NCBI GenBank assembly: GCA_002840365.1 | Contig: PHAO01000001.1 | Coordinates: 652,360 to 716,359 of the forward strand | DNA length: 64,000 nt | From: Candidatus Dojkabacteria bacterium HGW-Dojkabacteria-1 | Lineage (GTDB): Bacteria > Patescibacteriota > Dojkabacteria > SC72 | Reading direction: 5' to 3' | Part shown: piece after piece, positions 19,642 to 42,557 of the stretch | Layout of the letters: each line of letters opens with the position of its first letter | Numbering within the stretch: position 1 is the first letter of the stretch | Program-made: the position numbers and the translations under genes | Notes under the pieces: generated by a model | What the model was told of the DNA's origin: nothing | The model's input: only the letters and a program-made list of their open reading frames with translations | Databases searched by the model: none

Positions 19642-20793
19642 TTATTTAATAGCTTTAAGAATTTCTTCTACCGCCTTCTCTCCTACACCTTTGATACCTT
19701 TAAGGTCATCTTTTGTTTTTCCTGCCAAGTCTTCAACTGTTTCGATTCCTGATTCTTTTAATGCCTTCTCTATTCTTACTGAAAGACCTAAGTCTTCAAT
19801 TTTTCTAGAATTAGATTCTGCTTTTACTGCTTCTGCTGCTGCTATTTCCTCTTCTATATTCTTCTCTCTCTTTACTACTCTTACAACTCCTGAAGTTTGT
19901 ACATCGGTCTTTCCCTCTCTCATAGCTTTCATTCTTAATCTTTCTTCTTCTTCCATTTTTTCTTGTCTTTCTTTTTCTTCAATATATCTTGTTTGAAGAT
20001 TTCTTAAGTTTGCTTCATGGTTTGTTCTTAAAGCTCTAAGAGATTCTGATTTTTTACCATCTTTTATTACCTCTTCAAAGAGTGAAACGAAAAGTGAAAT
20101 ACTCTTTATAGAGTCATCATTTGCCGGAATTGGATAATCTACTAAATCAGGATCACAGTTCGTATCTATTAATGCTAATACAGGGATACCTGCGATTTTA
20201 GCCTCATTGATAGCATTCTTTTCTACCTTACTATCTATTACTATCAACATCTTTGGCAATTCATCCATGAACTTTATACCTTCATATACCTTGTTCATTC
20301 TTTGAACCTGTCTTTCCATTAAAAGAATTTCTTTTTTAACAAGATCTTCACCACCTGATGCAAGATTTTCTTCCATTCTTACTAATCCTTGAATACTCTT
20401 TCTCATATGATCGAAGTTTGTGAAAAGTCCACCTGGCCATCTTTTGGTTATATAGAAGGCGCCAGATTCTTTTGCACTCTTTTCAATCAATCCTGCAGCT
20501 TGACCTTTAGTTCCTACAATTAATACATTACCTTTATCAACAATATTGTTTAAATCTGTTAATGCTACTTCAAGAAGCTTTCTTGTTTTTACAAGGTCAA
20601 TGATATGTACACCATTTCTGGTTTCATATATGAATTTCTTCATCTTTGGATTCCAAGCACTTCCTTTGTGTCCGAAGTGAGATCCTGCTTGAAGGAATGT
20701 AATTAATTCTGGGATTTGAACTTTTAGGCTTTTCTTTTCTGTCTCTGCCTTAGGTGTTACAGCCTTTTTTGAGACTTCTTTTGTTTTTTCCAT
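19642..20793 (-). CDS. rpsB: 30S ribosomal protein S2 with an about 130-aa C-terminal extension ending in a helix-hairpin-helix (RNAP alpha-CTD-like) domain
   Basis: S2 core (HFGHKGSAWNPKMKKFIY...IVGTKGQAA...ALIDTNCDP). Then a KE-rich linker and LSVRIEKALKESGIETVEDLAGKTKDDLKGIKGVGEKAVEEILKAI, which resembles the RpoA alpha-CTD HhH. Confidence 0.85.
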   Translation of the reverse strand: MEKTKEVSKKAVTPKAETEKKSLKVQIPELITFLQAGSHFGHKGSAWNPKMKKFIYETRNGVHIIDLVKTRKLLEVALTDLNNIVDKGNVLIVGTKGQAAGLIEKSAKESGAFYITKRWPGGLFTNFDHMRKSIQGLVRMEENLASGGEDLVKKEILLMERQVQRMNKVYEGIKFMDELPKMLIVIDSKVEKNAINEAKIAGIPVLALIDTNCDPDLVDYPIPANDDSIKSISLFVSLFEEVIKDGKKSESLRALRTNHEANLRNLQTRYIEEKERQEKMEEEERLRMKAMREGKTDVQTSGVVRVVKREKNIEEEIAAAEAVKAESNSRKIEDLGLSVRIEKALKESGIETVEDLAGKTKDDLKGIKGVGEKAVEEILKAIK

Positions 20794-20911
20794 TTGTTTT
20801 TCCTTTTTACACCTATCTCTTGTGGGTAGAATTTTCTCTATCCAGGAAATATCAGAGATATGTGAGATTAATTAAATACGACCCTGATTATATACTCTAA
20901 GTACATATTTT

Positions 20912-33083: not shown

Positions 33084-33281
33084 ATGACCCCAACAGCACG
33101 TACGAACGGTAACGTTAATTGTGTTGATTGCACTCGCGAAGGCGCTGAGTGCGAAGGTTGTAAAACCGATGGATTGACTGCCGCTGACCTCATAGGGGTC
33201 TACACAGAGGGGATGTCAATTGAGGAATTGGCAGAATTTTATGAGAATATCTTGGAAACGGAGGATTTAAAGCCGATATAA
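33084..33281 (+). CDS. Small Cys-containing acidic protein (CxxC-x6-CxxC) encoded in the rplA-rplJ leader region; GC-rich relative to genome
   Basis: Consensus Shine-Dalgarno AAGGAG sits 5 nt upstream of the ATG, which is rare in this window. The ORF is about 50% GC against roughly 33% background. Product: MTPTARTNGNVNCVDCTREGAECEGCKTDG...EELAEFYENILETEDLKPI. Confidence 0.45.
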   Translation: MTPTARTNGNVNCVDCTREGAECEGCKTDGLTAADLIGVYTEGMSIEELAEFYENILETEDLKPI

Positions 33282-34466: not shown

Positions 34467-34494
34467 TAAAGAGGTCTTTATGACCTCTTTTTTC
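34467..34494 (+). terminator. Rho-independent terminator after rplL
   Basis: AAAGAGGTC-ttta-GACCTCTTT stem followed by TTTTCTTT. Confidence 0.6.
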
Positions 34495-34503
34495 TTTATA
34501 TAT

Positions 34504-34534
34504 ATTCGACAATACATACTAATACAAAGTATAA
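34504..34534 (+). promoter_or_regulatory. Candidate promoter of the 7TM/ATP-grasp operon
   Basis: TTCGAC at 34504-09, a 19-nt spacer, then TATAAT at 34529-34, about 38 nt upstream of the 34572 start. Confidence 0.3.
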
Positions 34535-34571
34535 TGATGCGGGAATATTCTAATTTTTCAATGTATTATAT

Positions 34572-35237
34572 ATGTTTGAAACTTCAGGCTTAACAGAATG
34601 GATATTACAACATGGAGTATCAAAAATGGCACTTGAGTTACTCATAGCAGTAGCTGTTTTAGCTACTATTGTCAGTATAGCAAGATACGTTATTGGCTCT
34701 AAAACATATGGTATATATGCACCAATACTTTTGGCAATTGCATATTCATATACTGGATTAAAATATGGCCTAGCTATTACCATTATTGTAATACTAACAT
34801 CCCTACTCTCTTACAATGTACTCAAGAGAATTAGAATGCACTACATTACTCGTATTGCTACAAACTATACAATTTTAGCAATGGTATTAGTTCTTTTCTT
34901 TGTGTTGATAGATATGTTTGGATTGGGGTTAGAGAATATGGCAAATATACCACCACTAGCTTTCATCTCTATCGCAGCTCTCTCAGACTTTTTCATCAAA
35001 CAGTATGTTAAAAAATCTTTTGCAGGTTCAATATTAACCTTAACAGGAACAATATTAGTGGCTGCAATCGGATGGTTTGTAATAACTAGGGAAATTATCT
35101 CTGAATATATGATAAACAATCTTTGGGTTCTCCCCTTGCTAACATTAGTAAACTTACTACTCGGTCAGTTTACAGGTTTAAGAATCAAGGATTACTTTAG
35201 ATTCAAACTATCAAACAGAGATGATTCATCTAATTAA
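34572..35237 (+). CDS. Stand-alone 7-transmembrane protein (7TM module of the kind found fused to inactive transglutaminase in ATP-grasp-associated systems)
   Basis: A 221-aa protein with seven hydrophobic helices (ALELLIAVAVLATIVSIA; IYAPILLAIAYSY; LAITIIVILTSLLSY; ILAMVLVLFFVLIDMF; PLAFISIAALSDFFI; ILTLTGTILVAAIGWFVI; LWVLPLLTLVNLLLGQF). Its 3' end overlaps the next ATP-grasp gene by 17 nt. Confidence 0.65.
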   Translation: MFETSGLTEWILQHGVSKMALELLIAVAVLATIVSIARYVIGSKTYGIYAPILLAIAYSYTGLKYGLAITIIVILTSLLSYNVLKRIRMHYITRIATNYTILAMVLVLFFVLIDMFGLGLENMANIPPLAFISIAALSDFFIKQYVKKSFAGSILTLTGTILVAAIGWFVITREIISEYMINNLWVLPLLTLVNLLLGQFTGLRIKDYFRFKLSNRDDSSN

Positions 35238-36696
35238 CAACAAATACAAACAGGTTTTAGGATTAAACAGAAGGAACCAAGAGTATGTAAGACCTTATAA
35301 TTCTCCCTCTGCGAAAGCTATTGCAGATAACAAGATTCTTACAAAGAGAATTCTCAAAAAAGAATTCATTCAGACTCCTGATGTATACAAATTAATTAGA
35401 ACAAAAAAACAACTACAGTTTCTAGATTGGGATAGCCTTCCAAAGAGTTTTGTAATAAAGCCTAACAAGGGAACAGGTGGAAACGGAATAATAGTCTTCT
35501 ATGGAAAAAAGAAAGGCCAAGAGGCTTGGATTAGGCCTAATGGCACCATTATGAGTAAAAGAGATATCATTCTTCACATTGAAAATATTCTCGAAGGAAG
35601 ATTCTCAATGGGTTCGAAAAACGACATTGCAATAATAGAAGAAAGAATAAAGACCGATCCACTCCTTAAGCAGTACTCTTACAAAGGTGTTCCTGATATT
35701 AGAATAATCTGTTTTAATCAGGTCCCAGTAATGGGAATGCTTAGATTACCTACTAAAAGGTCAAATGGTACTGCAAACTTACATTCAGGTGCAATATGTA
35801 CAGGTATAGATATGGAATCAGGAATAACTACCTACTCTATGCATATGCAAGCATCAGCTTTTAGATCAGATTCATATAAACTAATAGATTCAACATTAGA
35901 TTTACAAGAAAACAAACAATTAAGTGGAGTACAAATACCATATTGGAATGAAATGTTAGAGATTGCACTTAAGTGTCAAAAAGCTAGTAGACTTGGGTAT
36001 ATAGGGGTAGACATAGCAATAGATGCAGAAAAAGGTCCAGTAGTATTTGAAATAAATGCAAGACCAGGACTTGGCATACAAGTCGCTAATCAAGCAGGTC
36101 TAAGATGGAGATTAGAAAAGGTTAAAGATTTGAAAATAAAGAGCATAAAGCATGGAATTAGAGTTTCAAAAAATCTCTTTGGTGGTGAAATTGAGGAAAG
36201 TATTGAAGCAATTAGTGGTAGAAAAGTTCTAAATATTACAGAAAGAATATCTGTATTTAACAAAGGTACTGATGTATTAAAAATTAAAAGAACAAAAAAT
36301 ATTAAAAAGGAAATAGTTAAAGCATTCATGGATACAGGAATACTTACATCAAGAATCTCCTCTACCCTTGCAAACAGAATAGGGTATCTAAAAGCTACTA
36401 AAGATTTCGAAAACTTTGATATTCCTAAGAGATTTACCAGTTTTAAGGAGGCTCAGGAATATATTGATAAGTATGAGAAAGAGATATGTGAACATCCTGA
36501 TATAAAAAGATTAGCTAAAATCCTAGAAGATGGTGAGATAAAGATAAGGCCTGTTTTTGATATACCAATAAAAATTTCTGATACAGTTAAAGTAACAGAA
36601 TTTGTATCTACGGACGCAGAAGATAGTACATATCAAGTAGTACTTGGTAGATCTGATCTTTCTGGATATTTGATTGATACAAGCAATACCTTCTAA
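35221..36696 (+). CDS. ATP-grasp amidoligase 1: alpha-L-glutamate-ligase-like (RimK-related) domain fused to a C-terminal retropepsin-like (ATP-dependent Zn-protease-type) domain
   Basis: N-terminus LGLNRRNQEYVRPYNSPSAKAIADNKILTKRIL...FVIKPNKGTGGNGIIVF...DIRIICFN...FEINARPGLGIQ is typical of the alpha-L-glutamate ligase-like family. The C-terminal roughly 180 aa end in YQVVLGRSDLSGYLIDTSNTF, which resembles the retropepsin-like domain of these systems. Confidence 0.75.
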   Translation: MIHLINNKYKQVLGLNRRNQEYVRPYNSPSAKAIADNKILTKRILKKEFIQTPDVYKLIRTKKQLQFLDWDSLPKSFVIKPNKGTGGNGIIVFYGKKKGQEAWIRPNGTIMSKRDIILHIENILEGRFSMGSKNDIAIIEERIKTDPLLKQYSYKGVPDIRIICFNQVPVMGMLRLPTKRSNGTANLHSGAICTGIDMESGITTYSMHMQASAFRSDSYKLIDSTLDLQENKQLSGVQIPYWNEMLEIALKCQKASRLGYIGVDIAIDAEKGPVVFEINARPGLGIQVANQAGLRWRLEKVKDLKIKSIKHGIRVSKNLFGGEIEESIEAISGRKVLNITERISVFNKGTDVLKIKRTKNIKKEIVKAFMDTGILTSRISSTLANRIGYLKATKDFENFDIPKRFTSFKEAQEYIDKYEKEICEHPDIKRLAKILEDGEIKIRPVFDIPIKISDTVKVTEFVSTDAEDSTYQVVLGRSDLSGYLIDTSNTF

Positions 36697-36714: not shown

Positions 36715-37695
36715 ATGCAAAAAACTTACGAACAATATTTACAAGAAGCAGGAAACGTACATCTTGCCTACTATATTGAAGCTGCAGATATTTTAGGAAT
36801 TAAATACGAAATAGTTAAGAAATCCTTAATGGCTAGATTTGAATACAACAACAGACACTGGTTTATCATTAATACTGCAACACCTCTTACTAATACAACA
36901 AGTACGACTATAGCTAAAAGAAAAAATCTTACTAATGAGGTATTAGCGAAAGCAGGAATTGCAGTACCAAAACAGGTACCACTAAGAGATAAGAAAGATG
37001 CAGTAAAGTTTTTTGATGAATATAAAAATATTGTCATAAAGCCATCTCAACAACTTGGAGGGATAGGCGTTACCCTACTTCCCAAAGATAAGAGACAGGT
37101 AGAAAAAGCCTTTAAGCATGCTCTCTCAAAATCAAAATCAGGAGATACAGCAAAAGTAATAGGAGAAGAATTCATAGAAGGAGAAAATTATAGACTTCTG
37201 GTTGTTGGTGATTCTGTTGTAGGCATTGTAAGAAGAAAGGCAGCATTTGTCATAGGTAATGGAAAGGATAATATTAAAAAATTGATTGAAGAGAAGAATA
37301 CTTTAAGAAAACAAAATATGCTTAAACCAATTCTCATAGATAACGAGGTAAAGCTGAGATTGGAAAATTTAAAAATAAATCTAAGATATATTCCAAAAGA
37401 TGGTGAGGAAGTTTTATTAAGATATAACTGTAACCTAACAACTGGTGGTACTACACAAGAGTGTGCTAGTGAGGCACATCAGTACTATAAAGATTTAGCT
37501 ATTAATGCTGTAAAAGCAATTGGTACACAGTTTGGTGGAGTAGATATAATTACTCCTGATATTACACAACCTGCCAAATGTGGTGTGAATGAAATAAACT
37601 ACAACCCTGGACTTCGTTTACACTATAAGGCAGACGAAGGAGAGGCCGTAAAGGTTGCTGTTCCAATAATGGAATATATAGTAAATAATATTTAA
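36715..37695 (+). CDS. ATP-grasp amidoligase 2: cyanophycin-synthetase-like ATP-grasp (G-domain only, no Mur-ligase domain)
   Basis: ILGIKYEIV...FIINTATPLTNTTSTTIAKRKNLTNEVLAKAGIAVPK, VIKPSQQLGGIGVTL, GENYRLLVVGDSVVGIVRRKAAFVIGNGKDNIKKLIEEKN, and EINYNPGLRLH. The pattern parallels the CphA N-terminal ATP-grasp region. Confidence 0.75.
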   Translation: MQKTYEQYLQEAGNVHLAYYIEAADILGIKYEIVKKSLMARFEYNNRHWFIINTATPLTNTTSTTIAKRKNLTNEVLAKAGIAVPKQVPLRDKKDAVKFFDEYKNIVIKPSQQLGGIGVTLLPKDKRQVEKAFKHALSKSKSGDTAKVIGEEFIEGENYRLLVVGDSVVGIVRRKAAFVIGNGKDNIKKLIEEKNTLRKQNMLKPILIDNEVKLRLENLKINLRYIPKDGEEVLLRYNCNLTTGGTTQECASEAHQYYKDLAINAVKAIGTQFGGVDIITPDITQPAKCGVNEINYNPGLRLHYKADEGEAVKVAVPIMEYIVNNI

Positions 37696-37705
37696 TGCCC
37701 AAAAC

Positions 37706-39400
37706 ATGTCAAAAACTATACAAGGTTTAAATCTAGAATCACAATTTACAACAGTAAAGATAGAATTAAAAGGTAAAGATATTGGGCAAATAACAAAGCT
37801 TCTAGACACTATTAGCTCTTTTCACCCTATTTTCTTTAAAGAATATATTCTCTCAAGTGAAGAATTAAGCATTCGTTCAAAGCTTCCTGCAATATGGAGA
37901 GAATCTGATGAATATATTCAAAAGCTCTCAAGTGGAGACATTACATATGAGAAAGCATATGAAGGAGTTGTTAATACAGTAATTACTAAAAGAGTTAAGT
38001 CCATGTCTACAATTCCCCTACTACATGCTGCTCATAATAAGAATATTGAAACAAGCTTAGCAGTTATAAATAGAAACATTGTGGAAGGATATGAACTTGG
38101 ATATAGCAATACTTTTAACAGATACTATGTAATAGGCTGTGGTAAAGGATCACAAATAACAGGTTCTATTGCTTCAAGTAAAGATGCCGCTATAGCACAA
38201 AAAATACAGAGAGATAAATGGTCTACAAATACCATAATAGAAAGATTAGGATTACCAATGCCAAAGTGGCAGATATTGGATAAAGAGAGTGACATAGAAA
38301 AGGTTTGGAAGGAGTATGAGAAGCCAGTCGTTATTAAGCCCACTGGTTTAACAGGTGGTAAAGGAGTAACAGTAGGAATAGAGAATATTGAGAATGCAAA
38401 GAAAGCTTTTAATAGGGCAAAAAAAGAGACAAGCAATAAAGTTCGGTCCCCTTGGCAAACTAAAATTATGATTCAGGAACAGGTCGCAGGAGAAGATTAC
38501 AGGCTTTTAGTTATAAATGGTAAGTTAGAAGTAGCTACAAAAAGAATACCCGCATTTGTTGTTGGAGATGGGAAGAAAAACATTAAGGAATTAATTGAAG
38601 AAACAAATTCTGATCCAAGAAGAGATGTCACAAATCCAGCTCACATACTCAAACCAATTGTAATTGATGAGCCTCTGTTAGATCTATTAGAAAAAAACAA
38701 ATTAACTCTTGAATCTATCCCAGAGAAAGATATGAAAGTCTTTGTAAGAAATATCGCAAGTATGAGTCAAGGTGGAATAACAGAAGATTTTACAGATAAT
38801 GTAAGTAAGGAAATTAAAATTTTGGTAGAGAGTATTGCTCAATCAATACATGCATTTACACTTGGAGTAGATGTAATGTGTAAGGATTCGTCTAAACCAC
38901 TTACTAAAGAAAATGGCGCTATACTAGAGATTAATACTATGCCAGAGGCATATTTGAATCTTTTCCCTGTATTGGGTAAAGAAAGAGGATACGTTGCAGA
39001 CAGATTTGTCGATGGACTACTTTCAGAAAATAAATGTCAAAAGTATGTAGTTGTGGGACAAAGTATTAATGACATACCAACAACATTAAGGAAATGGTGG
39101 AGACAAGACAAGAATCAAAATATTGGAGAGATAATTGAAGACAGATACTATGTAAATGGCCTTCAGATTAACGATGGACTAGAAAGATGGCATGCATTTG
39201 AAGCAATTAAGTGTAACGCTTCATTAGATACAATAATATTACACCATAGAGATTGGAATAATGTTAAAGAGGATGGTTTGGGTTTTGACCATATTAATAC
39301 ACTGTATATAACAAAAGATATGGCTAGAGAGAAAGAGTACATGAAGTTAATGAAGAAATATAAAGGTATGAAGTTAATAGATAATATTAAAATAATATAA
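37706..39400 (+). CDS. ATP-grasp amidoligase 3: CphA-like ATP-grasp with about 190-aa N-terminal and about 130-aa C-terminal extra domains
   Basis: Central region PVVIKPTGLTGGKGVTVGIEN, GEDYRLLVINGKLEVATKRIPAFVVGDGKKNIKELIEETNSDPRR, and GAILEINTMPE. The N-terminal domain precedes the ligase core as in CphA. No Mur-ligase motifs. Confidence 0.7.
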   Translation: MSKTIQGLNLESQFTTVKIELKGKDIGQITKLLDTISSFHPIFFKEYILSSEELSIRSKLPAIWRESDEYIQKLSSGDITYEKAYEGVVNTVITKRVKSMSTIPLLHAAHNKNIETSLAVINRNIVEGYELGYSNTFNRYYVIGCGKGSQITGSIASSKDAAIAQKIQRDKWSTNTIIERLGLPMPKWQILDKESDIEKVWKEYEKPVVIKPTGLTGGKGVTVGIENIENAKKAFNRAKKETSNKVRSPWQTKIMIQEQVAGEDYRLLVINGKLEVATKRIPAFVVGDGKKNIKELIEETNSDPRRDVTNPAHILKPIVIDEPLLDLLEKNKLTLESIPEKDMKVFVRNIASMSQGGITEDFTDNVSKEIKILVESIAQSIHAFTLGVDVMCKDSSKPLTKENGAILEINTMPEAYLNLFPVLGKERGYVADRFVDGLLSENKCQKYVVVGQSINDIPTTLRKWWRQDKNQNIGEIIEDRYYVNGLQINDGLERWHAFEAIKCNASLDTIILHHRDWNNVKEDGLGFDHINTLYITKDMAREKEYMKLMKKYKGMKLIDNIKII

Positions 39401-39402
39401 AT

Positions 39403-40356
39403 ATGAACTACTTAATTATAGATAAAAGACAAAGAGTCGAAACAGGTAATGAGGACAAAATCGCCACTGCCAATCTAAGACTCATGGAAGAGTTGGATAA
39501 AAAAGGTATACCCCACTCTCTTGCATACAATGATGAACTAGAATTTCAGTTCATTGATGGTGAAACAGTGATAAAAGCGAAAGGTGAAGATATTCGAAAA
39601 TACACTCATATACTGCTTAGAGGGCATGCTTTACATAACGAAATGGAGTATCAATTCAAGAGATACATAGTGGACTATATAGATGAACATAATAGAAAAA
39701 ATCCAAATGAAAAGGTATTAATACAAAATAGTGAAGCTATGAAAAGGTTTCCTTACTACAATAAGATAGCTCTTGCCCTATTCTGCTCTATCAATGATAT
39801 ACCTTACTTCAATACATATTTTAGAACAGATGGAAATTATTTAGCACACAGGGACATACTCGAAGCTTTTCCTCTTATAATTAAGGAGTATGCAGGAGCA
39901 AATAGAGTTGAAATTATTGATGGTAAGGAAAAAATTAAAAAGAACGTCTTTAAAATAAGTAATGAAGATGATTATAGACAGGAGTATTTAAAGGATTTAG
40001 ATCACTCTAGGTTTTTCATACAGGAATTCTCTGATAGCGGTAAGGATATGAGAATCTTCGTAAAATTAGGCAAAGTCATTGGTGGATGGAAGAGAGAGGC
40101 AGTGGATGGTTTCATGACTGTAAAGGATGGAAATTACACTATGTACAACGAACCCGAGAAGGAAATAAAGGAATTTGCTGAAAATGTTGCACAAAAACTC
40201 TCAGCAGATTTTGTAGCAGTAGATATTATGTATATGGGAGACAAACCCTTACTACAGGAGATTAGTTATCACCCAGGTTTCAAAGCATACGAAACAAAAA
40301 TAGAGGGAGAACCTGTAAATATAGCAGAAGCAATAGTAACAGCATTTAAGGAGTAA
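39403..40356 (+). CDS. ATP-grasp amidoligase 4: RimK/glutathione-synthetase-like
   Basis: FFIQEFSDSGKDMRIFVKLGKVIGGWKREAVDGFMTV...AENVAQKLSADFVAVDIMYMGDKPLLQEISYHPGF is a RimK-like C-terminal ATP-grasp core. The start is 2 nt after the previous gene. Confidence 0.7.
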   Translation: MNYLIIDKRQRVETGNEDKIATANLRLMEELDKKGIPHSLAYNDELEFQFIDGETVIKAKGEDIRKYTHILLRGHALHNEMEYQFKRYIVDYIDEHNRKNPNEKVLIQNSEAMKRFPYYNKIALALFCSINDIPYFNTYFRTDGNYLAHRDILEAFPLIIKEYAGANRVEIIDGKEKIKKNVFKISNEDDYRQEYLKDLDHSRFFIQEFSDSGKDMRIFVKLGKVIGGWKREAVDGFMTVKDGNYTMYNEPEKEIKEFAENVAQKLSADFVAVDIMYMGDKPLLQEISYHPGFKAYETKIEGEPVNIAEAIVTAFKE

Positions 40357-41523
40357 CTAAATACCTGCTTTCTTAAATATTGATTTCCAAAGTTCTTTGG
40401 TAGGAACTATGTGAGCATTCGGAATTAACCCTTCATCTACCCATTCACATTGATTAAAATCAATCTTTCCTGCATAGAGCTTTTCATACAATGAAGGATC
40501 TTTTTCAAGTTGCCTAATAACCTTTCTAAATCCTCTGAAATACACAATATCCTTTGCATATATTCCTGGATAACTAGTATCCCCTAGTCCTCTTTTTACC
40601 CTATATACAACATCAAAAGCTGATCTCCTTGGAAGTGCACCTAATACACTGTTATACAACTCTCTAAACGTTAGTTCTTCTCCAATATATATTGCCCATA
40701 CAAGTGCTGCTTTCTCTTTTAACCATCTAAGAGTTAACAAATCCATATTAGATTCATTCCATGTAGCCAAACCCTCCTCGACATCTAGATAACTGGGTAA
40801 ATTGGCTTTTGCTAAAGCATCAAAACCACTCTTCGCACCATTAGTAGACCTAAGAACATGGGTACCAACTTCATGTACAATTGTTTTTCTTAGTTTAAAC
40901 TTTGATCTCTCTATATTTGGATCTAAGAGTACCTGCTTTGTCTTTATACCAACCTTAGCTCCATTTTTTGCAATATTCATAGATTTAGCAACACTCCATC
41001 CATCTAAATATAATTCCTTAAACACAATATCAAAAACCTCTTGTATATCATCAAACCTTAGCATATCCTCAGGTTTAGCCTTTTTCATATTTGCCAACTT
41101 ATATGCATCTACCTTACCCCTTAATACTCTAGTTGCATTTCTAAATAGCTTTGGAGATGGCTTGGAATATTTCTTGTATGAGAGATCTGTAACTAATTCG
41201 TTATTACCTACTGAATGCATAAGGTCGCTAGAGTCTTTTTTAGATTCGATAAGTTGGATATAGAAGTCGGAAATTCTAGGATCTACATCAGTAATTTCTT
41301 TCAATGAAGAAAGTTTCTTAAAAATCTCTTCATTTTTGTTTTTAATTAATCTATATGTAAATTGCGGCTCATAGTTATCTGAGTCGAAAAATTTCTTTTT
41401 CTCTACATCTAAATTAGTAGGAGTAAACACTAAGCCAATGGGAATTCTTAATTGTGAGAGGTGATTTGTAACCTCCTCGAGCTTCATTGTTGATTTATCC
41501 TTTTTAGAGAAGATATTTACCAT
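40357..41523 (-). CDS. DUF1704 / QEGLA-motif zinc metallopeptidase (MATCAP-like carboxypeptidase family)
   Basis: TIVHEVGTHVLRSTNG (HExxxH-type zinc site) and downstream DVEEGLATWNE (QEGLA-like motif). About 390 aa, typical for this family. Convergent with the ATP-grasp operon and co-directional with the MreB paralog upstream. Confidence 0.65.
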   Translation of the reverse strand: MVNIFSKKDKSTMKLEEVTNHLSQLRIPIGLVFTPTNLDVEKKKFFDSDNYEPQFTYRLIKNKNEEIFKKLSSLKEITDVDPRISDFYIQLIESKKDSSDLMHSVGNNELVTDLSYKKYSKPSPKLFRNATRVLRGKVDAYKLANMKKAKPEDMLRFDDIQEVFDIVFKELYLDGWSVAKSMNIAKNGAKVGIKTKQVLLDPNIERSKFKLRKTIVHEVGTHVLRSTNGAKSGFDALAKANLPSYLDVEEGLATWNESNMDLLTLRWLKEKAALVWAIYIGEELTFRELYNSVLGALPRRSAFDVVYRVKRGLGDTSYPGIYAKDIVYFRGFRKVIRQLEKDPSLYEKLYAGKIDFNQCEWVDEGLIPNAHIVPTKELWKSIFKKAGI

Positions 41524-41540
41524 TACAAGAATAAAAAATA

Positions 41541-42557
41541 TTAATTATACCCCTTGTTAAAAGAGAATACTCTTTCTCCTGTCACCATTAATTCTAATGC
41601 TATACCAGTACCCTTTACAACACAATACATAGGTTCATCTGCAACATGGGCAGGGACACCTATTGCCTTTGTAAATAGCTTATCAAGGTTTCTTAATTTT
41701 GAAGTACCACCACTCATAACCATTCCCCTGTCCATAATATCTGCTGAAAGCTCAGGTGGAGTTTTCTCCAATACACCCTTAATACTATTAATAATACTTA
41801 ACAATGGTCTTTTCACTGCAAATGCAACATCATTGGAATCAATATTAATTGCTTTTGGAAGACCAGCCCCTACATCCCTTCCTCTAACTTCCATACTCTT
41901 CGGGTTCTTTATTTCAATTGCACTTCCAATCCTTATCTTAATATTCTCTGCAGTTTGCTCTCCAATCAATACACCCTTCTTCTTACGCATATAGTTTATT
42001 ATTGCCTCATTAATAGCATCTCCAGCAATCCTTAGTGAGTCATACTCTACAATACCATCCAAAGAAAGAACCGCTATCTCTGCAGTACCACCTCCTAAAT
42101 TCACAATCATATTCCCTGAAGAAGTCTCTATTGGTAGACCAGCACCAAGTGCTGCTAAAAGAGGTTCTGGTAACATAGTAACTTGCCTTGCACCTGCATT
42201 ACTTGCTGCTTTAATAACTGCTCTTTGCTCAACAGTGGTAATACCTGCAGGTACACTTATCACAACCTCTGGTTTAAAAAATCTAGATTTACCAAGAGCT
42301 TTATTCAAAAAATACTTAAGCAAAGCTTCCGTTACTCTAGAGTCTGCGATTACACCATTTCTCATTGGCCTTCTTGCAACAATATTCTCAGGAGTCTTAC
42401 CAATCATTCTTTTAGCTTCAGAACCTACTGCTATAACCTTATAATTATTTACATCTATTGCAACAACAGTTGGCTCAACAAAGGATATCCCTTCCCCTTG
42501 GACAAATACTATTGAATTAGCAGTACCTAAATCTATACCTAACTTCTTTCCTAACAT
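41541..42557 (-). CDS. Second MreB-family actin homolog (paralog of mreB at 27145)
   Basis: LGIDLGTANSIVFVQGEGI, NLGGGTAEIAVLSL, and MSGGTSKLRNL actin-fold motifs. About 45-50% identity to the first MreB by eye. The next gene on the same strand, 17 nt downstream, is the DUF1704 peptidase. Confidence 0.8.
   Translation of the reverse strand: MLGKKLGIDLGTANSIVFVQGEGISFVEPTVVAIDVNNYKVIAVGSEAKRMIGKTPENIVARRPMRNGVIADSRVTEALLKYFLNKALGKSRFFKPEVVISVPAGITTVEQRAVIKAASNAGARQVTMLPEPLLAALGAGLPIETSSGNMIVNLGGGTAEIAVLSLDGIVEYDSLRIAGDAINEAIINYMRKKKGVLIGEQTAENIKIRIGSAIEIKNPKSMEVRGRDVGAGLPKAINIDSNDVAFAVKRPLLSIINSIKGVLEKTPPELSADIMDRGMVMSGGTSKLRNLDKLFTKAIGVPAHVADEPMYCVVKGTGIALELMVTGERVFSFNKGYN

What the first reader, a model, noticed from the sequence alone, without database searches (positions are those of the whole stretch)
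35221..36696. ATP-grasp ligase 1 carries a fused C-terminal retropepsin-like (Zn-protease-type) domain
The first about 300 aa form the ligase. The last about 180 aa (from KVKDLKIKSIKHGIRV to YQVVLGRSDLSGYLIDTSNTF) have no ATP-grasp features. They end in the (V/I)LGRxxLxxxxIDxxN(T)F pattern typical of the retropepsin-like domain. That domain is normally a separate gene in the 7TM/ATP-grasp three-gene systems. Fusing ligase and peptidase-like domain in one polypeptide would support a coupled add-and-trim or autoprocessing mechanism. The DTG-like catalytic motif appears degenerate (ISDT), so the domain may be a non-catalytic substrate-binding module.
Basis: partly seen in the sequence, partly recalled or inferred. 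Interest (0 to 1): 0.6.

Follow-up and report, generated by a model that had tools for sequence, protein, structure and literature searches.

The report
Ligase fused to an intact retropepsin-like protease
This Dojkabacteria gene joins an ATP-dependent amino-acid ligase to a small HIV-protease-like peptidase whose catalytic Asp-Thr-Gly motif is intact, so one cytoplasmic protein probably both builds and cuts a peptide tail; it is a new arrangement of the known RloABC/RimBK systems.

Summary
The ORF 35221-36696 (+, 491 aa) is real. It is PKN03074.1 of Candidatus Dojkabacteria HGW-Dojkabacteria-1, publicly named only 'hypothetical protein' or 'ATP-grasp domain-containing protein'.

Residues 1-320 are an RloC-type (TIGR02291/PF14397) ATP-grasp ligase. 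Residues 321-333 are a conserved acidic linker, GGEIEESIEAISG. Residues 334-491 are a retropepsin-like domain of the RimB/RloA (PF05618) lineage.

Evidence for the protease domain:
- Its AlphaFold model matches only retropepsins in the PDB.
- Profile-profile comparison with canonical RloA and relatives gives 99.7% probability.
- More canonical relatives with the same fusion pass Pfam's PF05618 threshold.

A canonical D371-T372-G373 is present and almost invariant (65, 66 and 63 of 66 orthologs). 'ISDT' is an unrelated strand.

The fusion and its operon (7TM protein, three more ATP-grasp ligases, a MATCAP-like carboxypeptidase) are syntenic in 77 Dojkabacteria genomes. I read it as a cytoplasmic add-and-trim enzyme. 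Its closest precedents are RloABC, where the protease is secreted and separate, and the RimBK hybrid, which has the opposite domain order.

Substrate, dimerisation and activity are inferred. New variant of a known kind; moderate interest.

The parts
34572..35237 (+). 7TM membrane protein, 221 aa. Corresponds to the 7TM half of RloB only; it has no inactive-transglutaminase or other extracytoplasmic domain. It overlaps the ligase start by 17 nt.
   Evidence: PF14402 7TM_transglut, E 9e-18. NF052267 RloB profile positions 315-504 of 508 only. Present upstream of the fusion in the Dojkabacteria loci.
35221..36180 (+). ATP-grasp amino-acid ligase module, residues 1-320 (RloC / TIGR02291 / ATPgrasp_ST type). 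No signal peptide, pI 9.85.
   Evidence: PF14397 positions 1-277 of 278, E 2.5e-68. TIGR02291 283.5 bits against a cut-off of 314.2. 40% identical to Legionella RloC, which ends at the position of F320. AF2 pLDDT mostly above 85. Composition.
36181..36219 (+). Conserved acidic inter-domain linker GGEIEESIEAISG, residues 321-333. Found only in the fusion proteins.
   Evidence: The surrounding junction (residues 303-332) averages 80% identity across 66 orthologs, more than either domain (78% and 55%). G321, E329 and G333 are invariant. The linker is kept in distant fusions as GGEIEEEVENLTG, GGEVEEEIEAIAG, GGEIEQEIEEISG and GGEIEREIEEPTG, and is absent from stand-alone RloC and stand-alone proteases. 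Predicted as a short helix 323-332 followed by a low-confidence hinge 331-336. pI 4.05.
36220..36693 (+). Retropepsin-like aspartic peptidase domain, residues 334-491. A divergent member of the PF05618 RimB/RloA lineage.
   Evidence: Foldseek PDB top hits are Ddi1 RVP, HIV-1 and EIAV proteases, RloA2 (9g59), RloA (9g58), Lpg0085 (2pma) and APRc. The top 3 PDB profile hits are 9g59, 9g58 and 2pma. NF052264 RloA3 E 7e-7. hhalign 99.7%. Relatives with the same fusion pass the PF05618 gathering score.
36331..36339 (+). Catalytic motif D371-T372-G373, in the context KAFMDTGILTSR.
   Evidence: Translation. Kept in 65, 66 and 63 of 66 orthologs. Aligned to the DTG of RloA2, RloA and Legionella RloA. 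Sits at the end of strand 363-371.
36361..36486 (+). Two-helix insertion, residues ~381-422, between the catalytic loop and the flap hairpin. It replaces the beta-rich segment of canonical RloA.
   Evidence: DSSP helices 381-397 and 408-422 with pLDDT ~90. The region aligns poorly with Legionella RloA. It is shared by the other candidate-phyla-radiation (CPR) fusions and stand-alone relatives.
36547..36555 (+). R443-P444-V445 motif at the base of the flap hairpin. R443 is the equivalent of RloA R114, a polyglutamate-binding residue.
   Evidence: R in 58 of 66, P and V in 66 of 66 orthologs. Invariant R in alignment A5, which includes canonical RloA. Role of R114 taken from PMC12239564.
36643..36693 (+). 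C-terminal LGR...YLIDTSNTF, residues 475-491.
   Evidence: G476, L480, Y483, L484, D486 and F491 are invariant. Aligned with LLGR..IDPSK of RloA. pLDDT below 50 for 485-491 in the monomer model. The dimer-platform role is an inference from RloA and HIV protease structures.
36715..37695 (+). Second ATP-grasp ligase, 326 aa. Resembles the ATP-grasp domain of cyanophycin synthetase and of bifunctional GshAB.
   Evidence: NF010623 E 3e-63 over profile 166-471. Syntenic in the Dojkabacteria loci.
37706..39400 (+). Third ATP-grasp ligase, 564 aa, cyanophycin-synthetase-like.
   Evidence: NF010623 E 5e-74 over profile 186-567. Syntenic.
39403..40356 (+). Fourth ATP-grasp ligase, 317 aa, RimK/MptN-like.
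   Evidence: PF08443 E 6e-9. NF040720 E 7e-12. Syntenic.
40357..41523 (-). MATCAP / QEGLA-motif metallocarboxypeptidase-like protein, 388 aa. Convergent with the ligase operon and 18 nt downstream of mreB.
   Evidence: PF08014 E 1.6e-29. TIGR02421 E 3.6e-33. Syntenic. Functionally linked through the triple fusion P0113, which carries ligase, retropepsin and MATCAP domains.

Best explanation
The gene encodes a cytoplasmic, bifunctional 'write-and-cut' enzyme.

Anatomy:
- Residues 1-320 are an RloC-type ATP-grasp ligase. It would add amino acids, most likely glutamate or another acidic residue, to a carboxylate of a peptide or protein tail.
- A 13-residue conserved acidic linker follows.
- Residues 334-491 are a retropepsin-like aspartic endopeptidase of the RimB/RloA lineage with an intact Asp-Thr-Gly.

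Proposed mechanism:
- Like all retropepsins, the protease domain should work only as a homodimer, each chain giving one Asp. The fusion would therefore also pair two ligase modules.
- The protease cuts back the product that the ligase makes, alone or with the three other ATP-grasp ligases of the operon.
- By analogy with RimB-RimK, it may also stimulate the ligase.
- The upstream 7TM protein, translationally coupled by a 17-nt overlap, would tether the enzyme to the membrane or take up its product.
- The MATCAP-like carboxypeptidase would trim the product from the C-terminal end.

Shown here: domain identities, the intact and conserved catalytic motif, conservation of the fusion and of the operon, absence of a signal peptide.

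Inferred: dimerisation, proteolytic activity, acidic substrate, role of the 7TM protein.
For: Fold and homology of the C-terminal domain:
- AF2 model with pLDDT above 85 over the core.
- The top 30 Foldseek PDB hits are all retropepsins, including RloA2 (9g59), RloA (9g58) and 2pma.
- The three best PDB sequence-profile hits are those same proteins, with the DTG and RPV...LGR segments colinear.
- NCBIfam RloA3 E 7e-7 and RloA2 E 4e-4.
- hhalign 99.7%, E 2.7e-26.
- Relatives P0044, P0048, P0050, P0080, P0083 and P0115 have the same ATPgrasp_ST + C-terminal architecture and score above Pfam's PF05618 threshold.

Catalytic competence:
- D371, T372 and G373 are kept in 65, 66 and 63 of 66 orthologs, while the domain averages 55% identity.
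- R443, the equivalent of RloA R114 whose mutation abolishes polyE cleavage, is conserved.

Selection on the fusion:
- The single ORF is intact (482-516 aa) in 65 of 69 loci not cut by a contig end, from 77 species-level genomes.
- The order 7TM, fusion, three ligases, MATCAP is syntenic in essentially all.

Functional coupling of the modules:
- Canonical rloABC has them as three genes.
- Genetics in P. aeruginosa places RloA, RloB and RloC in one pathway, and RloA and RimB cleave polyglutamate (PMC12239564; PMC11957791).
- Other natural fusions exist: ligase-retropepsin-MATCAP (P0113) and retropepsin x2-7TM (P0086).

Cytoplasmic location:
- No N-terminal hydrophobic segment.
- Only one Cys in the protease domain, so the RloA disulfide cannot form.
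- Fused to an ATP-using domain.
Against: - The window's own domain falls below every curated threshold: PF05618 17.5 bits against 27; RloA3 29 bits against 210.
- Two of the four basic residues that bind polyglutamate in RloA are not conserved in Dojkabacteria. The Lys two residues before the catalytic Asp is Phe. The Arg of the 'TDR' motif is Ala or Asp, or deleted. The substrate may therefore not be polyglutamate.
- The residue after DTG is Ile or Val rather than the Ala typical of retropepsins.
- Foldseek TM-scores are modest (0.45-0.62 on the target) because of the helical insertion and the disordered linker.
- Dimerisation could not be modelled.
- No product of any RloC-type ligase is known.
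- One Dojkabacteria ortholog in the 66-sequence alignment and one more distant fusion (P0039, NTG) have lost the catalytic Asp.
Confidence: 0.65

Rival explanations
1. Self-releasing polyprotein. The retropepsin domain cuts the conserved acidic linker in cis or trans, as retroviral proteases excise themselves. This frees a stand-alone protease and a ligase that ends in ...GGEIEE.
For: The linker is the most conserved stretch of the protein. It is fusion-specific and Glu-rich, and is followed by a low-confidence hinge. Relatives RloA and RimB cut Glu-rich sequences, including internal ones. Stand-alone relatives start exactly where the linker ends.
Against: The linker has at most 2 consecutive Glu in this protein (EE at 325-326) and 3 in distant fusions. 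RimB needs 5-6 and RloA 8 contiguous Glu, and interruption by other residues abolishes cleavage. The linker is predicted helical rather than extended. The characterised RimBK hybrid was purified as a hybrid protein and was active as such. Strong selection for an uninterrupted ORF fits a permanent fusion as well as a polyprotein.
Confidence: 0.15
2. Non-catalytic module. The retropepsin fold is kept only to bind the substrate tail or to dimerise and activate the ligase, without peptide-bond hydrolysis.
For: RimB stimulates RimK ATPase and polyglutamate synthesis by binding it. Several polyE-binding residues of RloA are lost. The residue after DTG is not Ala. A few relatives have lost the Asp: P0039 has NTG, and 1 of 66 Dojkabacteria orthologs has N. 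In Kerfeldbacteria a second, more canonical stand-alone retropepsin follows the fusion, whose own copy looks more degenerate.
Against: D-T-G is kept in 65, 66 and 63 of 66 orthologs, in a domain that is otherwise only 39-97% identical to the window copy. Such invariance is not needed for binding or dimerisation alone.
Confidence: 0.13
3. The C-terminal region is an unrelated oligomerisation tail, and the resemblance to retropepsins is chance.
For: Direct matches of this sequence to curated models are below threshold.
Against: Independent lines agree: structure search, PDB profile search, profile-profile comparison, and transitive homology through relatives above the Pfam threshold with the same architecture. 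All motifs are colinear.
Confidence: 0.02

Closest known systems
RloABC system of Pseudomonas aeruginosa / P. fluorescens (PMC12239564); a canonical example was read here in Legionella adelaidensis plasmid 5 (L079)
   Same: Same three module types, adjacent in one operon: a TIGR02291/PF14397 ATP-grasp ligase (RloC; 40% identical over 309 aa), a PF14402 7TM protein (RloB) and a PF05618-lineage retropepsin with DTG, RPV and LGR..ID motifs (RloA).
   Different: - Here the protease is fused to the C-terminus of the ligase. It has no signal peptide and no disulfide pair, so it is cytoplasmic rather than secreted.
- The 7TM protein lacks the inactive transglutaminase domain.
- The protease carries a two-helix insertion and has lost two of the four polyE-binding basic residues.
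- The operon adds three further ATP-grasp ligases and a MATCAP-like peptidase.
- The host is a candidate-phyla-radiation bacterium. The paper reports 96% of RloB hits in Proteobacteria.
RimB-RimK and the RimBK hybrid enzyme (Desulfotalea psychrophila DP2392; PMC11957791)
   Same: A cytoplasmic retropepsin-like endopeptidase works with, or is fused to, an ATP-grasp alpha-L-glutamate ligase. The precedent shows that such a fusion keeps protease activity and that the protease both trims the product and stimulates the ligase.
   Different: - Opposite domain order: RimB is N-terminal in RimBK.
- The ligase belongs to a different ATP-grasp family. The window protein scores 49 bits against a 143-bit cut-off on the RimK family model TIGR00768.
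- RimBK has no 7TM partner.
- The target of RimK is ribosomal protein S6; no target is known here.
Retropepsins proper and Ddi1 RVP domains (HIV-1 protease, EIAV protease, Ddi1 of yeast, Leishmania, Toxoplasma)
   Same: Best structural matches of the model: same fold and DTG loop. The 'DTGx..S.I....A..LG' helix-after-loop pattern is closer to Ddi1 and Asp_protease_2 than to canonical RloA.
   Different: 12-19% sequence identity. A 40-residue helical insertion is present. Fused to a ligase. No evidence for polyprotein processing.
Eukaryotic tubulin tail code: TTL/TTLL ATP-grasp ligases with MATCAP/VASH/CCP peptidases (my own knowledge)
   Same: Logic of ATP-grasp ligases that add residues to a protein C-terminal tail, opposed by dedicated peptidases. 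The operon's convergent neighbour is a PF08014 MATCAP homologue.
   Different: Analogy only. No substrate has been identified, the proteins are bacterial, and an additional endopeptidase is involved.

Membership tests
Clan AA retropepsin-like peptidases | Retropepsin fold (beta-rich half-barrel with a psi loop carrying the catalytic Asp) | tested here: met
   AF2 model with core pLDDT above 85. The top 30 Foldseek PDB hits are all retropepsins at probability 1.00, with TM 0.45-0.62 on the target.
Clan AA retropepsin-like peptidases | Hydrophobic-hydrophobic-Asp-Thr/Ser-Gly catalytic motif | tested here: met
   F369-M370-D371-T372-G373. D, T and G are kept in 65, 66 and 63 of 66 orthologs.
Clan AA retropepsin-like peptidases | Ala after DTG (typical of retroviral-type enzymes and of the RloA proteins) | tested here: not met
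   Position 374 is Ile or Val in 54 of 66 orthologs and Ala in 4. The more canonical candidate-phyla-radiation (CPR) fusions have DTGA.
Clan AA retropepsin-like peptidases | Obligate homodimer with two Asp at the interface | not testable with these tools
   Only monomer prediction is available. The invariant C-terminal strand has pLDDT below 50 in the monomer model, which is compatible with ordering on dimerisation.
Clan AA retropepsin-like peptidases | Aspartic endopeptidase activity | not testable with these tools
   Needs biochemistry.
Pfam PF05618 (Zn_protease / RimB-like) and NCBIfam RloA models | Score above the curated cut-off | tested here: not met
   PF05618 17.5 bits against 27. NF052264 RloA3 29 bits against 210. 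NF052263 RloA2 19.8 bits against 250. Homology is nevertheless shown by hhalign at 99.7% and by relatives that pass PF05618. It is a divergent member of the lineage, not an RloA equivalog.
RloA (secreted osmotic-stress retropepsins) | N-terminal signal peptide and a conserved Cys pair forming a disulfide | tested here: not met
   The domain is internal to a cytoplasmic ATP-grasp fusion. It has one Cys only, and no hydrophobic N-terminus.
RloA/RimB (polyglutamate-specific) | Basic residues that coordinate polyE (RloA K46, R92, R114, R137) | tested here: inconclusive
   The R114 equivalent (R443) is conserved. The K46 equivalent is F369. The R137 equivalent ('TDR') is Ala or Asp, or deleted, in Dojkabacteria but present in other CPR fusions. 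R92 was not mapped. A lineage-specific invariant R378 exists.
RloC / TIGR02291 alpha-L-glutamate ligase-like ATP-grasp | Full-length match to the family model | tested here: inconclusive
   TIGR02291 283.5 bits against a cut-off of 314.2, covering profile 9-291 of 317. PF14397 230.7 bits against 31.4. 40% identity to an annotated Legionella RloC.
RloABC three-gene system | Inactive transglutaminase domain fused to the 7TM protein | tested here: not met
   The 221-aa protein matches only RloB profile positions 315-504 and PF14402.
RloABC three-gene system | Adjacent ligase, 7TM and retropepsin modules in one operon | tested here: met
   Window 34572-36696, with a 17-nt gene overlap. Conserved in 77 genomes.
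RimBK hybrid | RimB domain N-terminal to a RimK-family ligase | tested here: not met
   The protease is C-terminal. The RimK family model TIGR00768 scores 49 bits against 143. Architecture of RimBK.

The most novel reading that the evidence does not exclude
The fusion-specific, highly conserved acidic linker (GGEIEESIEAISG) may be a built-in pseudo-substrate or primer. It would either occupy the basic groove of the protease as an autoinhibitor, or be cut once to leave the ligase with a Glu-ended tail that it then extends on itself.

More broadly, these cytoplasmic ligase-protease fusions, set beside relatives whose protease lies outside the membrane fused to the 7TM protein (P0086), would mean that the 7TM protein passes a ligase-made acidic polymer across the membrane. 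That would resolve how cytoplasmic RloC and periplasmic RloA share a substrate in Pseudomonas.
Probability: 0.15. Interest if true: 0.65.

Novelty: new variant of a known kind. Interest (0 to 1): 0.45.

Why it matters
The Rlo system affects osmotic tolerance, cell shape, biofilm formation and antibiotic sensitivity in Pseudomonas, yet its chemistry is unknown. It is also unclear how a cytoplasmic ligase (RloC) and a secreted protease (RloA) act on the same thing (PMC12239564).

A natural, strongly conserved RloC-RloA fusion in minimal-genome Dojkabacteria is 'Rosetta-stone' evidence that the ligase product is the protease substrate. Sister fusions to a MATCAP-like carboxypeptidase and to the 7TM protein point the same way. 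The fusion also offers a compact one-polypeptide system for biochemical reconstitution.

The result further corrects a public annotation: PKN03074.1 and its orthologs are named only as ATP-grasp or hypothetical proteins, and the precomputed Pfam domains listed for the close homologues found here include no protease family.

Tried and rejected
- Iyer et al. 2009 (PMC3268129), which first described the 7TM/ATP-grasp/pepsin-like systems, is not held. I therefore could not check whether this C-terminal fusion was already mentioned there.
- The word-indexed protein search returned only truncated records (122-335 aa). This first suggested stand-alone 122-aa proteases starting at 'MDTG'. Reading the genomes showed they are split or partial gene calls. 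For example, P0026 comes from DIFL01000046 (locus L018), where the gene is interrupted, while 65 of 69 loci carry an intact 482-516-aa ORF. The exact full-length protein is in the collection.
- BLASTP of the P0113 C-terminus against the window's MATCAP-like protein was not significant (E 0.14). The Pfam profile settled it (40.4 bits).
- I scanned the window for genome-encoded polyGlu or acidic runs as possible substrates. Only one EEEE was found, in an unrelated ORF at 19645-20871.
- I considered co-transcription with rplJ-rplL, and hence a ribosomal target as for RimK. A terminator-like hairpin (34468-34490) followed by an 11/12 promoter-like site (34506-34535) separates them. These are consensus matches only, so the idea is weakened but not excluded.
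- The ligase module has no close solved structure. The best matches are Ddl and RimK at E 7e-6 to 4e-3.
Full report
**1. What is in the sequence**

The ORF listing shows one ORF at 35221..36696 on the + strand, 491 aa. Its start overlaps by 17 nt the end of a 221-aa membrane-protein gene (34572..35237). The only ORF on the opposite strand inside it (36090..36329, 79 aa) has no support and was not pursued.

An exact-sequence look-up identifies the protein as PKN03074.1 / UniRef100_A0A2N2F4E0 of Candidatus Dojkabacteria bacterium HGW-Dojkabacteria-1. It lies on a 734-kb contig and is named only 'hypothetical protein' or 'ATP-grasp domain-containing protein'.

**2. The N-terminal module**

- Pfam ATPgrasp_ST (PF14397) covers residues 17-302 over the whole profile, E 2.5e-68.
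- NCBIfam TIGR02291 'alpha-L-glutamate ligase-like protein' covers residues 9-303 with 283.5 bits, against a cut-off of 314.2.
- A tblastn search of plasmids found a textbook rloA-rloB-rloC operon in Legionella adelaidensis. Its RloC is 40% identical to the window protein and ends (...KEMFAR) at the position of window F320.

**3. The C-terminal module is a retropepsin-like domain**

Direct matches are weak but point one way:
- PF05618 gives E 0.004, 17.5 bits, below the gathering score of 27.
- NCBIfam RloA3 gives E 7e-7 and RloA2 gives E 4e-4, far below their equivalog cut-offs.

Four further tests make the assignment firm.

(a) A profile of Dojkabacteria C-terminal domains searched against PDB sequences puts RloA2 (9g59), RloA (9g58) and Lpg0085 (2pma) in the first three places. 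The DTG segment and the RPV...LGR segment align in the same order.

(b) An AlphaFold2 model of residues 301-491 has mean pLDDT 77.6, with the core above 85. Against the PDB with Foldseek, its top 30 matches are retropepsins only: Ddi1 RVP domains, HIV-1, EIAV and XMRV proteases, RloA2, RloA, Lpg0085 and Rickettsia APRc. All have probability 1.00. TM-scores are modest (0.45-0.62 normalised on the target) because the model contains a disordered linker and a 40-residue insertion.

(c) An exhaustive HMM search of 1.84 billion representatives found 91 relatives. About fifteen are 431-511-aa proteins (plus one of 688 aa) with the domain at the C-terminus. Pfam shows these to be ATPgrasp_ST plus Zn_protease. 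PF05618 scores above its gathering score in P0044, P0048, P0050, P0080, P0083, P0094 and P0115.

(d) hhalign of the Dojkabacteria profile against a profile seeded with Legionella RloA plus those relatives gives 99.7% probability, E 2.7e-26, over 147 columns.

**4. The catalytic motif is intact**

That tetrapeptide (about residues 453-456) lies in a strand after the RPV motif.

The real motif is K-A-F-M-D371-T372-G373-I-L-T-S-R, at window 36331-36339:
- It sits at the end of strand 363-371 in the model.
- It aligns with AKLDTGAKS of RloA.
- I extracted the orthologous ORF from 77 species-level genomes and aligned the 65 intact ones with the window protein. D371 is kept in 65 of 66, T372 in 66 and G373 in 63. 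Meanwhile the domain averages 55% identity, with a minimum of 39%.

Also invariant or nearly so are R378, R443-P444-V445, G476-R477 and the C-terminal Y483-L-I-D-T...T-F491. This pattern is that of an enzyme under selection for catalysis, not of a decayed binding module.

**5. Ways the domain departs from characterised relatives**

- The residue after DTG is Ile or Val, not Ala (feature).
- Two helices (381-397 and 408-422) replace the beta-rich segment that follows the catalytic loop in RloA.
- Four basic residues coordinate polyglutamate in RloA (K46, R92, R114, R137). The R114 equivalent (R443) is kept. The K46 equivalent is Phe. The R137 equivalent (the R of 'TDR') is Ala or Asp, or deleted, in Dojkabacteria. 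The other candidate-phyla-radiation (CPR) fusions keep AKIDTGA, DRS and IDPSK.
- There is no signal peptide and only one Cys, so the RloA disulfide is impossible. In that respect the domain resembles cytosolic RimB.

**6. The linker**

Between F320 and the first strand of the protease lies GGEIEESIEAISG (321-333):
- The junction around it (residues 303-332) averages 80% identity in Dojkabacteria, against 78% for the ligase and 55% for the protease.
- It recurs in fusions that are only 38-46% identical overall: GGEIEEEVENLTG, GGEVEEEIEAIAG, GGEIEQEIEEISG and GGEIEREIEEPTG.
- It is absent from stand-alone RloC and from stand-alone proteases, which start just after it.
- In the full-length model (mean pLDDT 84.9) it is a short helix, 323-332, of middling confidence, followed by a hinge with pLDDT below 50.

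Its function is not explained. Self-cleavage there is possible in principle. However, RimB needs five to six and RloA eight consecutive glutamates, and the linker has at most two or three.

**7. Context**

The gene order is as follows:
- rplJ, rplL, then a terminator-like hairpin and a promoter-like site.
- 7TM protein, then the ligase-protease fusion.
- Two cyanophycin-synthetase-like ATP-grasp ligases, then a RimK-like ATP-grasp ligase.
- Convergent with these, mreB followed by a MATCAP/QEGLA-like carboxypeptidase.

This order is conserved in essentially all 77 Dojkabacteria loci. The fusion ORF is intact in 65 of 69 loci that are not cut by a contig end. The 7TM protein corresponds only to the membrane half of RloB and lacks the inactive transglutaminase domain.

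Other natural fusions tie the modules together:
- P0113 carries ligase, acidic linker, retropepsin and a MATCAP domain (PF08014 40.4 bits against a threshold of 27).
- P0086 has a signal anchor, two tandem retropepsin domains and the 7TM domain.
- P0094 adds a YdjC domain.
- In a Kerfeldbacteria contig the fusion has a degenerate linker and is followed by an extra, more canonical stand-alone retropepsin.

**8. How it most likely works**

From established knowledge of the families:
- RimK adds glutamates to the S6 tail.
- RimB, a dimeric retropepsin, removes them and also stimulates RimK (PMC11957791).
- RloA cleaves polyglutamate, and loss of RloB or RloC suppresses loss of RloA (PMC12239564).

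I therefore read the window protein as a cytoplasmic add-and-trim enzyme. The ligase extends an acidic peptide or tail. The protease, dimerising through its conserved C-terminal strands, cuts it back and perhaps activates the ligase. The 7TM protein localises the enzyme or receives the product. The MATCAP-like enzyme trims from the end.

The domain assignments, the intact motif and the conserved fusion and synteny are shown. The substrate, dimerisation, activity and the role of the membrane protein are inferred. The loss of two polyE-binding residues means the substrate may differ from pure polyglutamate.

**9. Comparison with what is known, and novelty**

The closest systems are RloABC and RimBK. 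The window protein works like them, but it is not an RloA equivalog:
- It is below the curated cut-offs.
- It has no signal peptide or disulfide.

It is not a RimBK either, because the domain order is opposite and the ligase belongs to another ATP-grasp family.

Ligase-retropepsin fusions as such are already described (RimBK). The more canonical CPR fusions are detectable with Pfam. The kind is therefore known. The variant is new as far as I could check: RloC-type ligase with a C-terminal protease, acidic linker, helical insertion, TGase-less 7TM partner and an expanded four-ligase operon in Dojkabacteria. A literature search found nothing on it, and the 2009 Aravind-group survey could not be read.

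**10. Verdict**

- It is wrong on non-catalytic status.
- Interest is moderate. For the specialists, the fusion gives direct comparative evidence that ligase and protease act on the same molecule, and a compact system for reconstitution.

Noticed in passing
P0113 (703 aa, metagenomic, N-terminally truncated record): Triple fusion. The end of an ATPgrasp_ST ligase, the acidic linker (GGEVEEEIEDISG) and a PF05618 retropepsin are followed by a C-terminal MATCAP (PF08014, 40.4 bits) domain with HEIVH...YQEGIA motifs. It links the MATCAP-like gene of the window (40357-41523, -) functionally to the ligase-protease.
   Followed up: partly
P0086 (487 aa, metagenomic): An N-terminal signal anchor is followed by two tandem retropepsin domains (RIDTGAD..., RVDSGSE...) and then a 7TM_transglut domain. 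This is a single-chain pseudo-dimeric protease in the place where RloB has its inactive transglutaminase domain, presumably outside the membrane. That is the opposite side from the cytoplasmic fusion studied here.
   Followed up: partly
L078 6418-9883 (Candidatus Kerfeldbacteria, JACQPW010000039.1): The operon encodes a PKD-PKD-7TM protein (527 aa), then a ligase-retropepsin fusion P0057 whose linker has lost the acidic motif and whose protease lacks the 'DR' Arg, then an extra stand-alone canonical retropepsin (158 aa; AKIDTGA, VDRK, IDPTK). This suggests a heterodimer, or replacement of a decaying fused copy.
   Followed up: partly
window 40357-42557 (-): The MATCAP/QEGLA-like carboxypeptidase gene lies 18 nt downstream of mreB on the same strand, and the pair is conserved next to the ligase operon in most Dojkabacteria loci. 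In eukaryotes MATCAP trims a cytoskeletal protein, and rloA mutants of Pseudomonas have cell-shape defects. No evidence was obtained here that MreB is a substrate; its C-terminus (...FNKGYN) is not acidic.
   Followed up: no
window 34468-34535: A terminator-like hairpin (9 bp stem plus a T-run) sits directly after rplL. It is followed by a promoter-like site matching 11 of 12 consensus positions, 37 nt upstream of the 7TM gene. The ligase cluster therefore looks like its own transcription unit rather than part of the rplJL operon. These are consensus matches only.
   Followed up: no
P0039 (501 aa) and one of 66 Dojkabacteria orthologs (alignment): The catalytic Asp is replaced by Asn (INTGDS in P0039) in a few fusion proteins. 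These are possibly inactive variants or sequencing errors.
   Followed up: no
P0034 (290 aa, 3.4-kb JGI contig); P0026 / L018 (DIFL01000046.1): Protein databases hold many truncated or odd versions of this gene. P0034 joins ligase residues ~1-138 directly to the protease (a deletion between two 'AI(S/I)' sites, possibly an assembly chimera). 122-aa records start exactly at MDTG, and L018, L028 and L045 have interrupted genes. They give a false impression of stand-alone Dojkabacteria proteases.
   Followed up: partly
window 33084-33281 (+): A 65-aa Cys-rich ORF (…NCVDCTREGAECEGCKTDG…) lies in the rplA-rplJ spacer, where the L10 leader is expected. It is probably not a gene.
   Followed up: no
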